Program-made: the position numbers
Assembly (NCBI RefSeq): GCF_056746865.1
Contig: NZ_CM163382.1
DNA: 64,000 nt
Reading direction: 5' to 3' (one strand)
Part shown: piece after piece, positions 4,747 to 7,700 of the stretch
Layout of the letters: each line of letters begins with the position of its first letter
How positions within the stretch are numbered: the stretch's first letter is position 1

Positions 4747-7700
4747 TTATCCTTTTACGCACACCACCTGACGCAGGGTATAGATAACTTCCACCAGATC
4801 GCTTTGTGCCGCCATCACCGCATCAATATCTTTATACGCCATCGGGATTTCGTCGATCACTTCGGCATCTTTACGGCATTCCACATGCGCGGTGGCACGA
4901 ATTTGATCTTCCACGCTGAACATTTTTTTCGCTTTAGTACGGCTCATAACCCGCCCGGCACCGTGGCTGCACGAACAGAACGACTCTTCATTTCCCAGCC
5001 CACGGACGATAAAGCTCTTCGCCCCCATCGAACCGGGAATAATTCCATATTGACCAGCACGCGCAGACACCGCGCCTTTACGCGTCACGTAGATCTCTTC
5101 ACCAAAGTGCTGTTCTTTTTGCACATAGTTGTGGTGACAGTTGATCTCTTCCATCGCCAGCGTTTGTGGCTGTCTGACCGTTTTCTGCGTAATGCTCTGC
5201 AACGCCGTTACCACGTTTTCCATCATCGCATCGCGGTTAAGGCTGGCAAAAAGCTGCGCCCAGGCCACGGCTTTCAGGTAATCATCAAAGTATTCCGTAC
5301 CTTCCATAAAGTACGCCAGATCACGCGACGGCAATGTTTCAAGCGTTTCCTGCATCTCTTTTTGCGCCAGATCGATAAAGTAAGTTCCGATGGCATTACC
5401 GATTCCGCGTGAACCGGAGTGCAGCATAATCCACACCTGATCCGACTCATCAAGGCAGATTTCAATAAAGTGGTTACCCGTTCCCAGCGTTCCCAGGTGT
5501 TTATAGTTGTTAGTGTTAAGGAAACGGGGATATTTTTGCGTTAACCACTGATAACCGGCTTCAAGCTCAGCCCATTTCGCATCGACGTTAACAGGCGGGT
5601 TTTCCCATGCGCCTTTATCACGTTTACAACGCCCGGTAGTACGCCCGTGCGGCACGGCAGTTTCAATTGCCTGACGCAGCTCCGCCAGGTTTTCCGGCAG
5701 GTCTGCCGCCGTTAACGCGGTACGCAGCGCGTTCATTCCACAACCGATATCCACGCCCACCGCCGCCGGAATAATCGCCCCTTTGGTTGGGATCACGCTA
5801 CCAATGGTGGAACCTTTACCCAGGTGTACATCAGGCATTACCGCAATATGTTTGAAAATAAACGGCATCTTCGCCGTATTAATAAGTTGCTGACGCGCAT
5901 CGGCCTCTACCGGCACGCCTTTGGTCCACATTTTTACCGGGGCATTTTCAGTGGTCAGTAATTCGTAATTCATTTTGTTTTTCTCTTTTCGTTGTTTGCT
6001 GTCCTGATAATTGCAACCGTCGTGCCAGAAAATTAAATAAGCAGCTTAATTTTTTAATTTATTGTTTTTAATAGATTAAATCTTTACGTCCGTAAACGGA
6101 GATTTCCCGCAAAGCCAATTTACCGATAATGAAATATCGTCTTTTATAAGGATATCTAGAGATGCGTAAAACAGTGGCTTTTGGTTTTGTCGGAACGGTG
6201 CTGGATTATGCCGGGCGCGGCAGTCAGCGCTGGTCGAAATGGCGTCCGACGCTTTGTTTATGCCAGCAAGAATCGTTGGTCATCGATCGACTGGAATTAT
6301 TGCATGACGCCCGCTCGCGCTCGCTATTTGAAACGCTTAAACGCGATATCGCCAGCGTTTCGCCAGAAACAGAAGTGGTGGGCGTTGAGATAGAACTGCA
6401 TAACCCGTGGGATTTCGAAGAGGTCTACGCCTGCCTGCATGATTTCGCCCGTGGTTACGCGTTCCAGCCAGAAAAAGAAGACTATTTAATTCACATCACC
6501 ACCGGTACCCACGTCGCGCAGATTTGCTGGTTTCTGCTGGCAGAAGCGCGTTATCTACCCGCCCGGTTGATACAATCTTCACCACCGCGCAAAAAAGAAC
6601 AACCGCGCGGCGCAGGTGAAGTGACGATTATCGATCTCGATTTAAGCCGTTATAACGCCATCGCCAGCCGCTTTGCCGAGGAACGCCAGCAAACCCTCGA
6701 TTTCCTCAAATCCGGCATTGCCACGCGTAACCCCCACTTCAACCGCATGATTGAGCAGATCGAAAAAGTGGCGATTAAATCCCGCGCACCGATCCTGCTC
6801 AACGGCCCGACCGGGGCGGGTAAGTCATTTCTGGCGCGACGCATCTTTGAATTGAAACAGGCGCGGCATCAGTTTAGCGGCGCGTTTGTGGAAGTGAACT
6901 GCGCCACCCTGCGTGGCGATACCGCCATGTCGACGCTGTTTGGTCATGTGAAAGGCGCGTTTACCGGGGCGCGGGAGTCGCGGGAAGGATTATTACGCAG
7001 CGCCAACGGCGGGATGTTATTTCTTGATGAGATTGGCGAACTGGGCGCAGACGAACAGGCGATGTTGCTGAAAGCCATTGAAGAGAAAACCTTTTACCCA
7101 TTTGGCAGCGATCGCCAGGTGAGCAGTGATTTTCAGCTGATCGCCGGAACGGTGCGCGATTTGCGCCAGCTGGTTGCCGAAGGCAAATTTCGCGAAGACC
7201 TGTACGCACGCATTAATCTCTGGACCTTCACCCTGCCGGGGCTGCGCCAGCGCCAGGAAGATATCGAACCGAACCTGGATTATGAAGTGGAGCGCCACGC
7301 CGCGCTTACTGGCGACAGCGTGCGTTTTAACACCGAAGCACGGCGCGCCTGGCTGGCTTTTGCGACATCTCCCCAGGCAACATGGCGCGGTAACTTTCGA
7401 GAACTTTCTGCCAGCGTCACGCGGATGGCAACCTTTGCCGATAGCGGGCGCATTACTCTGGAAACCGTAGAAGATGAGATAAACCGTCTGCGCTATAACT
7501 GGCAGGAGAGTCGCCCCTCCGCGCTTCCGGCGTTGCTGGGCGCTGAGGCAGAAAACATCGACCTCTTTGATCGACTGCAACTGGAACACGTAATAGCCAT
7601 CTGCCGCCAGGCAAAGTCACTTTCTGCTGCCGGACGCCAGCTTTTTGACGTTTCGCGCCAGGGCAAAGCCAGCGTCAATGACGCGGATCGGCTACGCAAA

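What the first reader, a model, noticed from the sequence alone, without database searches (positions are those of the whole stretch)
6011..6027. Consensus sigma54 promoter for the rtcBA RNA repair operon
TGGCACGACGGTTGCA on the minus strand is a perfect -24/-12 element, placed between divergent rtcR (the cognate enhancer-binding protein) and rtcB. The RNA repair module is intact here (rtcB 408 aa, rtcA 339 aa, rtcR 532 aa).
Basis: seen in the sequence. Interest (0 to 1): 0.2.

Follow-up and report, generated by a model that had tools for sequence, protein, structure and literature searches.

The report
Known sigma-54 promoter of rtcBA
This is the already well-studied sigma-54 promoter that switches on the E. 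coli RNA repair genes rtcB and rtcA under control of the neighbouring activator RtcR; it is real, intact and ordinary.

Summary
TGGCACGACGGTTGCA lies on the minus strand at 6012-6027. It is the only exact match to TGGCACG-N4-TTGCW in the window (0.08 expected by chance). It sits in the 188-bp gap between divergent rtcR (6162-7760, +) and rtcB-rtcA (5973-3727, -). The window is E. coli, and from about -58 to the rtcB ATG the sequence is identical to K-12 MG1655.

The same 17-mer, CTGGCACGACGGTTGCA, is a published sigma-54 ChIP-seq peak in K-12 (Bonocora 2015, site OS35). That study flags it as experimentally confirmed in EcoCyc, with a predicted start 28 nt before rtcB. Here that start is C6001, which fits the ApC primer used in published in vitro assays of the native promoter.

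RtcR is a full-length enhancer-binding protein with a GAFTGA loop and a Walker A motif. In 19 of 25 RtcR loci from other species, a divergent sigma-54 element lies 84-196 nt from the rtcR start, mostly 126-156 nt.

Beyond the finding, comparison suggests a GATA/TATC repeat cluster next to the rtcR start as the RtcR enhancer, and an IHF-like site near -60. Both are inferences only.

Verdict: supported, already known, low interest.

The parts
6012..6028 (-). Sigma-54 -24/-12 promoter element CTGGCACGACGGTTGCA. GG is at 6026-6025 (-25/-24) and GC at 6014-6013 (-13/-12).
   Evidence: Read directly. Only exact consensus match in the window. PWM score 17.4 bits. Identical to the K-12 sigma-54 ChIP-seq site OS35. 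Identical in four other Escherichia species, with its core kept in other genera.
6001..6001 (-). Predicted transcription start (+1 = C6001, -1 = A6002).
   Evidence: Inferred from the -12 GC position. It equals Bonocora's rule of motif centre + 19 bp, which gives 28 nt to the rtcB start. It is consistent with the ApC dinucleotide primer plus ATP used at -1/+1 of native PrtcBA. The sequence here reads A6002 C6001 A6000. Not mapped in this strain.
5974..6000 (-). rtcB 5' leader, with a purine-rich Shine-Dalgarno-like AAGAGA at 5987-5982.
   Evidence: Sequence. The block CAACGRAAA..GRGA is conserved across enteric genera even where the first gene is rsr rather than rtcB.
4747..5973 (-). rtcB, RNA ligase, 408 aa.
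   Evidence: ORF. Pfam PF01139, E = 8e-134. 99.5% identical to K-12 RtcB.
3727..4746 (-). rtcA, RNA 3'-terminal phosphate cyclase. 339 aa from the first ATG; RefSeq K-12 uses the second ATG at 4743, giving 338 aa.
   Evidence: ORF. NCBIfam NF003247, 764.8 bits against cutoff 333. Tandem ATG ATG directly after the rtcB stop codon TAA. K-12 annotation.
6162..7760 (+). [quoted passage not shown] Domains: RtcR/CARF N-terminal domain, AAA+ sigma-54 interaction domain, C-terminal region.
   Evidence: NCBIfam NF038308 RtcR equivalog, 851.6 bits against cutoff 650. Pfam PF06956 plus PF00158. GAFTGA at 265-270 and Walker A GPTGAGKS at 215-222.
6055..6067 (-). Candidate IHF site AAACAATAAATTA, one mismatch to WATCAANNNNTTR, at about -54 to -66.
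   Evidence: Inference. Perfect IHF consensus sites lie 27-28 nt upstream of the 17-mer in Iodobacter, Accumulibacter and three Pseudomonas loci. The E. coli site lies 26 nt upstream. An 'rtc IHF binding site' is mentioned without sequence in PMC9650030. A second one-mismatch candidate lies at 6047-6059.
6124..6139 (.). Candidate RtcR enhancer (UAS) core: the palindrome CGATA-N6-TATCG, at about -123 to -138 from the predicted start. It also contains GATAAT, a possible -10 hexamer for rtcR.
   Evidence: Inference from comparison. CGATA-N6-TATCG is invariant in Escherichia, Klebsiella, Intestinirhabdus and Superficieibacter while the next ~90 nt are unalignable. GATA/TATC words number 41 in the rtcR-proximal 55 nt of 18 loci against 6 in the rest, and 0 of 2000 shuffles reach 41.
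6151..6156 (.). Second GATA/TATC element (GATATC), 5 nt upstream of the rtcR ATG and part of the same candidate enhancer cluster.
   Evidence: Inference only. It overlaps the rtcR ribosome-binding region.

Best explanation
This is the sigma-54 (RpoN) promoter of the E. coli rtcBA RNA repair operon.

How it works:
1. RNA polymerase carrying sigma-54 binds the -24 GG / -12 GC element at 6012-6028 (-) and forms a closed complex that cannot start transcription on its own.
2. RtcR is encoded divergently at 6162-7760. It binds an enhancer roughly 120-155 bp upstream, probably the GATA/TATC repeat cluster next to its own start codon.
3. RtcR is brought to the polymerase by DNA bending across the AT-rich spacer, which holds an IHF-like site near -60.
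4. Once RtcR's CARF domain is relieved of self-inhibition, ATP hydrolysis by its AAA+ domain (contacting sigma-54 through the GAFTGA loop) opens the promoter.
5. Transcription starts at about C6001 and yields a 28-nt leader followed by rtcB and rtcA.

What is shown here: the motif, its geometry, the identity of the three genes, identity to K-12, and cross-species conservation.
What is taken from the literature: sigma-54 occupancy, dependence on sigma-54 and RtcR, and CARF inhibition.
What is inferred: the exact start point in this strain, and the UAS and IHF positions.
For: - Exact consensus at 6012-6027 (-), the only such match in the window, with 0.08 expected.
- PWM score 17.4 bits, rank 2 in the window.
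- Position: 39 nt upstream of and co-oriented with rtcB, in the rtcR-rtcB gap.
- RtcB, RtcA and RtcR all match their family models above cutoff. RtcR carries GAFTGA and a Walker A motif.
- The stretch from about -58 to the ATG is identical to K-12 MG1655.
- The same 17-mer is sigma-54 ChIP-seq peak OS35 in K-12: FAT 17, 28 nt to rtcB, EcoCyc 'confirmed' (PMC4591121).
- Sigma-54 and RtcR dependence, constitutive activity of CARF-deleted RtcR, and an ApC primer at -1/+1 are reported in PMC9650030 and PMC5175333.
- The Salmonella homologue TGGCACGCTGGTTGCA binds sigma-54 and shows sigma-54-dependent activity (PMC3844500).
- Conservation: the 17-mer is identical in four other Escherichia species, while other parts of the gap vary among them. 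TCTGGCACG..GTTGCAA is one of only two conserved blocks upstream of the start across four enteric genera.
- 19 of 25 RtcR loci from Proteobacteria, Verrucomicrobia, Calditrichia and Desulfobacterota carry a divergent element of at least 12 bits within 250 nt of rtcR. The null rate is 0.26% per locus.
Against: - No experiment exists for this particular strain. The start point is predicted, not mapped.
- The PWM score alone is about one standard deviation above the mean maximum of random 64-kb sequences. Other hits of 16 bits in the window (37862-37878, 3302-3318) are not in the published binding tables. So sequence score alone would not prove function.
- The native promoter was reported to be 'very weak in vitro' despite its consensus match (PMC9650030).
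- Some rtcBA induction is RtcR-independent, possibly through other promoters.
- The primary paper, Genschik et al. 1998 (PMID 9738023), was not available to read.
Confidence: 0.97

Rival explanations
1. [quoted passage not shown] On this reading rtcBA is transcribed from some other promoter.
For: PWM hits of 16 bits or more occur elsewhere in the window, inside genes, and are absent from published sigma-54 binding tables. 8 of 100 shuffled windows contain one exact consensus match. The sigma-70 scan was not informative either way.
Against: The expected number in the 188-bp gap on the correct strand is about 1e-4. The 17-mer is invariant across five Escherichia species, and its core is kept across genera while the flanks diverge. 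A divergent element is present in 19 of 25 RtcR loci against a 0.26% null rate. The identical K-12 sequence is bound by sigma-54 in vivo.
Confidence: 0.01
2. The site binds the sigma-54 holoenzyme but mainly acts as a poised or occluding complex rather than a productive promoter. For example, it could dampen divergent rtcR transcription, with most rtcBA expression coming from RtcR-independent starts.
For: The native promoter is very weak in vitro, and some inducing conditions raise rtcBA independently of RtcR (PMC9650030). Sigma-54 can be repressive at some sites (PMC4551910).
Against: PrtcBA reporters are strongly induced by CARF-deleted RtcR and depend on RtcR under several stresses. The Salmonella homologue shows 16-fold and 71-fold sigma-54-dependent activation. 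The element lies about 130 bp from rtcR, too far to occlude a promoter next to the rtcR start.
Confidence: 0.02

Closest known systems
E. coli K-12 rtcBA promoter (PrtcBA; Genschik et al. 1998; sigma-54 ChIP-seq site OS35 of Bonocora et al. 2015)
   Same: The 17-mer CTGGCACGACGGTTGCA is identical, as is the sequence from about -58 to the rtcB ATG. Gene order is the same (malT, rtcA, rtcB, divergent rtcR, glpR). The predicted leader is the same 28 nt.
   Different: There are a few substitutions and 1-nt indels in the AT-rich spacer, next to the rtcR start and around -95 (for example CCGTTTACGG here versus CCGGTTACGG in K-12). None falls in the -24/-12 element or in the CGATA-N6-TATCG palindrome. 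glpR is intact here (252 aa ORF) but is a pseudogene in MG1655.
Salmonella Typhimurium rsr-yrlBA-rtcBA promoter (rsrp)
   Same: It has a divergent rtcR and a near-identical element, TGGCACGCTGGTTGCA, with sigma-54 binding and RtcR/sigma-54-dependent expression (PMC3844500, PMC9879122).
   Different: In Salmonella the promoter drives rsr and the Y-RNA-like yrlB/yrlA genes ahead of rtcBA. The Intestinirhabdus and Superficieibacter loci fetched here likewise carry YrlA genes and about 2 kb of sequence between the promoter and rtcB. In this window rtcB follows the leader directly.
pspF-pspA type divergent bEBP / sigma-54 promoter regions
   Same: The activator gene is divergent from its sigma-54 target, with an enhancer, an IHF-bent spacer and a -24/-12 element within a short gap. 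The enhancer is likely to overlap the activator's own promoter. This comparison rests on general knowledge of the psp system plus inference here.
   Different: RtcR is controlled through a CARF domain rather than by a partner protein such as PspA alone. The enhancer sequence proposed here (GATA/TATC repeats) has not been tested.

Membership tests
Sigma-54 (-24/-12) promoter | Conserved GG and GC dinucleotides exactly 10 nt apart within TGGCAC-N5-TTGCW | tested here: met
   TGGCACGACGGTTGCA at 6012-6027 (-), with zero mismatches to TGGCACG-N4-TTGCW. PWM score 17.4 bits, within the 11.8-22.9 bit range of the 22 training sites.
Sigma-54 (-24/-12) promoter | Located upstream of, and co-oriented with, a gene at a plausible leader distance | tested here: met
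   The predicted start at 6001 is 28 nt before the rtcB ATG at 5973, on the same strand.
Sigma-54 (-24/-12) promoter | A cognate enhancer-binding protein with an AAA+ domain and a GAFTGA loop | tested here: met
   RtcR is adjacent and divergent. It matches the NF038308 equivalog and PF00158, and has GAFTGA at 265-270 and a Walker A motif at 215-222.
Sigma-54 (-24/-12) promoter | Upstream enhancer (UAS) for the activator about 80-150 bp upstream, often with an IHF site between | tested here: inconclusive
   Candidate GATA/TATC cluster at -123 to -155 and a one-mismatch IHF site at -54 to -66. Support comes from cross-species comparison only. No binding data or published sequence were found.
Sigma-54 (-24/-12) promoter | Sigma-54 holoenzyme occupancy, and rpoN- and activator-dependent transcription | not testable with these tools
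   Published for the identical K-12 sequence: ChIP-seq FAT 17 and EcoCyc 'confirmed', plus RtcR and sigma-54 dependence. Not measured for this strain.
RtcR-RtcB-RtcA RNA repair module | RtcB ligase, RtcA cyclase and RtcR activator all present and full-length, with rtcR divergent from rtcBA | tested here: met
   ORFs of 408, 339 and 532 aa give full-length matches to PF01139, NF003247 and NF038308. They are 99.5% (RtcB) and 96.2% (RtcA) identical to K-12.

The most novel reading that the evidence does not exclude
The conserved GATA/TATC repeat cluster abutting the rtcR start codon (CGATA-N6-TATCG at 6124-6139 plus GATATC at 6151-6156) is the RtcR enhancer. It appears conserved from Proteobacteria to Verrucomicrobia and Desulfobacterota. 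Because it overlaps the likely rtcR -10 hexamer and ribosome-binding region, RtcR would also autoregulate. No paper I could read gives the RtcR enhancer sequence, so this may be an undescribed binding motif. Alternatively, the block could simply be the rtcR promoter and translation signals.
Probability: 0.5. Interest if true: 0.25.

Novelty: already known. Interest (0 to 1): 0.08.

Why it matters
It matters little as a discovery. The promoter, its activator and its operon have been characterised in E. coli K-12 since 1998, and sigma-54 binding to this exact sequence has been mapped. The check confirms that the RNA repair module and its control region are intact in this strain, which is not universal: 569 of 5426 complete E. 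coli genomes lack rtcB. The one modest addition is a comparative prediction of where RtcR and IHF bind, which could guide footprinting experiments.

Tried and rejected
1. An inverted repeat TTTACG-TC-CGTAAA at about 6085-6100 looked like a possible enhancer when I read the sequence. It was rejected because it is not conserved even within Escherichia (E. albertii, E. whittamii) and is absent in other enteric genera. The repeat finder reported only AT-rich low-complexity pairs in the gap.
2. A weak sigma-54-like match on the + strand (CTGTCCTGATAATTGCA, 5999-6015, 12.7 bits) shares the palindromic TTGCAA. It was rejected because it lacks the essential GG and scores only 7-10 bits in three of the four other Escherichia species.
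3. The sigma-70 scan found no promoter in the gap at its thresholds, so the rtcR promoter position stays inferred.
4. Genschik et al. 1998 was not held.
5. Searches of the main text and supplements for the UAS or IHF sequences found only mentions, no sequences.
6. I tested whether the L030 deletion junction explains the roughly 10% of E. coli genomes without rtcB. It does not: only one genome covers that junction. What the other genomes carry at this locus was not examined.
7. Other high PWM hits in the window were looked up in the published sigma-54 tables and not found.

Full report
**Observation**

The minus strand reads ...TTTTCTGGCACGACGGTTGCAATTATCAGGACAGC.... TGGCACGACGGTTGCA occupies 6027 down to 6012. 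The stated range 6011-6027 is one base too long at the low end.

This is the only zero-mismatch hit to TGGCACGNNNNTTGCW in the window on either strand. Dinucleotide-preserving shuffles give 0.08 hits per window. That corresponds to about 1e-4 for the correct strand of the 188-bp intergenic gap (my arithmetic). With up to two mismatches the window holds 18 hits against 14.2 expected, so only the perfect match stands out.

**Weight-matrix scan**

I built one from 22 intergenic sigma-54 ChIP-seq motifs printed in Bonocora et al. 2015, leaving the rtcB site out.

- The site scores 17.4 bits and ranks second of about 128,000 positions.
- The top hit is CTGGCACAGTTGTTGCT at 56859-56875 (-). This is the rpoH sigma-54 promoter and was itself in the training set.
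- Maxima of simulated 64-kb sequences average 15.7 +/- 1.8 bits. A 17.4-bit hit somewhere in the window is therefore not decisive alone.
- Two other hits near 16 bits lie inside genes (37862-37878; 3302-3318, antisense in malT). Neither is in the published binding tables.

Position and conservation carry the argument, not the score.

**Surroundings**

| Gene | Coordinates | Length | Best family match |
|---|---|---|---|
| rtcB | 4747-5973 (-) | 408 aa | Pfam RtcB, E = 8e-134 |
| rtcA | 3727-4746 (-) | 339 aa | NCBIfam cyclase equivalog, 764.8 bits (cutoff 333) |
| rtcR | 6162-7760 (+) | 532 aa | NCBIfam RtcR equivalog, 851.6 bits (cutoff 650) |

RtcR also matches the Pfam RtcR/CARF and Sigma54_activat domains. 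It contains GAFTGA at residues 265-270 and Walker A GPTGAGKS at 215-222.

rtcA begins with two tandem ATGs directly after the rtcB stop codon. RefSeq K-12 uses the second ATG, giving 338 aa.

The flanking genes are malT (979-3684) and a 252-aa glpR-type ORF, the same neighbours as in K-12.

**Identity of the locus**

The 351 bases around the gap are 100% identical to several E. coli chromosomes, strain 042 among them. They are found in 4856 of 5426 complete E. coli genomes.

Against K-12 MG1655 the 251-nt region is 98% identical. Every base from about -58 through the rtcB start is the same. The few differences fall in the AT-rich spacer, next to the rtcR start and around -95.

**Geometry**

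- With the C of TTGCA (6013) at -12, +1 falls on C6001.
- The leader is 28 nt (CAGCAAACAACGAAAAGAGAAAAACAAA) and holds a purine-rich Shine-Dalgarno-like AAGAGA.
- Bonocora's rule (start = motif centre + 19) gives the same base and the same 28-nt distance.
- Kotta-Loizou et al. primed the native PrtcBA at -1/+1 with ApC and extended with ATP. The sequence here is A6002 C6001 A6000, which fits.

**Published evidence for the identical sequence**

- Bonocora et al. 2015 (PMC4591121), Table 1, site OS35: motif CTGGCACGACGGTTGCA, minus strand, gene rtcB, FAT 17, EcoCyc status 'C' for experimentally confirmed.
- Engl et al. 2016 and Kotta-Loizou et al. 2022 state that rtcBA relies on a sigma-54 promoter and on RtcR. 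They report that RtcR lacking its CARF domain is constitutively active, and that an rtc UAS and an IHF site exist. Both cite Genschik et al. 1998.
- I could not read Genschik et al. 1998.
- The Salmonella homologue TGGCACGCTGGTTGCA binds sigma-54 and shows sigma-54-dependent activity (PMC3844500).
- One caveat from the literature: the native promoter is 'very weak in vitro'.

**Related loci**

One scan of species-representative genomes with RtcR returned 29 loci.

- Four other Escherichia species keep the 17-mer unchanged.
- Klebsiella, Intestinirhabdus and Superficieibacter keep CTGGCACG-N4-GTTGCA.
- Iodobacter, Accumulibacter, Pseudomonas, Verrucomicrobia, Calditrichia, Desulfobulbus and Desulfovibrio loci carry TGGCAC/T-N5-TTGC, TCGC or TAGC variants on the strand divergent from rtcR.
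- Of 25 full-length RtcR loci, 19 have a hit of at least 12 bits within 250 nt of the rtcR start. The shuffle null is 0.26% per locus.
- The distance from rtcR to the motif is 84-196 nt, clustering at 126-156 nt.

An alignment of six enteric sequences shows only two strongly conserved blocks upstream of the start, separated by about 90 unalignable bases. One is TCTGGCACG..GTTGCAA. The other is about 45 nt abutting rtcR.

**Additional anatomy (inference only)**

*Candidate enhancer.* The rtcR-proximal block contains the palindrome CGATA-N6-TATCG (6124-6139) and GATATC (6151-6156).

- Across 18 loci from several phyla, GATA/TATC words occur 41 times in the rtcR-proximal 55 nt and 6 times in the remaining 1596 nt.
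- No shuffle out of 2000 reaches 41, and GATA is the most enriched 4-mer.
- The cluster lies at -123 to -155 from the predicted start, the usual place for an enhancer, so I propose it as the RtcR UAS.
- It also holds GATAAT, a possible rtcR -10 hexamer, which would imply autoregulation.
- The same conservation could instead reflect rtcR's own expression signals.

*Candidate IHF site.* Perfect IHF consensus sites lie 27-28 nt upstream of the 17-mer in Iodobacter, Accumulibacter and three Pseudomonas loci. E. coli has a one-mismatch site, AAACAATAAATTA, at 6055-6067 (about -60).

I found no published sequence for either element.

**Verdict**

This is the known rtcBA sigma-54 promoter, intact in this strain. 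Novelty: already known. Interest is low.

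Noticed in passing
window 56859-56875 (-): CTGGCACAGTTGTTGCT is the best sigma-54 PWM hit in the window (20.7 bits). 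It is identical to the published rpoH sigma-54 promoter site OS36 of Bonocora et al. 2015. The window therefore holds a second known sigma-54 promoter.
   Followed up: partly
window 6124-6139 and 6151-6156: Conserved GATA/TATC repeat cluster (CGATA-N6-TATCG plus GATATC) abutting the rtcR ATG. The same kind of cluster appears in RtcR loci from Proteobacteria, Verrucomicrobia and Desulfobacterota: 41 words in the proximal 55 nt against 6 in the rest, and 0 of 2000 shuffles reach 41. It is a candidate RtcR enhancer, and I did not find its sequence in the literature I could read.
   Followed up: partly
window 6055-6067 (-); L007, L008, L009, L010, L011: Perfect IHF consensus sites (WATCAANNNNTTR) sit at a fixed 27-28 nt upstream of the sigma-54 17-mer in Iodobacter, Accumulibacter and three Pseudomonas loci. 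E. coli has a one-mismatch site at the equivalent position.
   Followed up: partly
L031 1790-3040 (E. coli Res13-Sevr-PER06-05-b-A, NZ_CP062815.1): An IS5 element is inserted between the -12 element and the predicted start (TTGCAATTAT | IS5 | TTATCAC, with TTAT duplicated). This separates the sigma-54 promoter from rtcB by about 1.2 kb. rtcA is annotated as frameshifted in the same strain.
   Followed up: partly
L030 4019-4025 (E. coli SCPM-O-B-8794); corresponds to window 3867-7667: A 3.8-kb deletion removes the 5' part of rtcA, rtcB, the promoter and most of rtcR, with a 7-nt overlap at the junction. rtcB and the promoter region are absent from 569-570 of 5426 complete E. coli genomes. This particular junction is covered in only one of them. 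What the other genomes carry at this locus was not examined.
   Followed up: partly
L006 1933-2174, L024 1843-2216; L009 3565-3710; L008 1781-1853: In Intestinirhabdus and Superficieibacter the promoter is followed by about 2 kb of sequence that includes YrlA Y-RNA-like genes before rtcB, as in Salmonella rsr-yrlBA-rtcBA. In a Pseudomonas locus and an Accumulibacter locus, tRNA-like elements lie about 120-260 nt downstream of the sigma-54 motif (Rfam tRNA 60.4 bits in L009; ARAGORN calls in both). K. oxytoca has a 170-nt leader with a 27-aa ORF that begins at the position where Intestinirhabdus and Superficieibacter have an aligned ATGGC start; it may be a remnant of a lost first gene.
   Followed up: no
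window 4741-4749 (-): rtcA starts with tandem ATG ATG directly after the rtcB stop codon TAA. The mechanical ORF is 339 aa, RefSeq K-12 annotates 338 aa from the second ATG, and the NCBIfam profile aligns to residues 2-339.
   Followed up: yes
window 7742-8500 (-): The glpR-type ORF is intact here at 252 aa. In K-12 MG1655 glpR is annotated as a pseudogene.
   Followed up: no
window 37862-37878 (+), 3302-3318 (-): These are intragenic sigma-54-like PWM hits of about 16 bits: TTGGCAGGCTACTTGCT inside a 370-aa ORF, and CTGGCGCAGTTGTTGCG antisense in malT. Neither appears in the published K-12 sigma-54 binding tables, so they are probably chance matches.
   Followed up: partly
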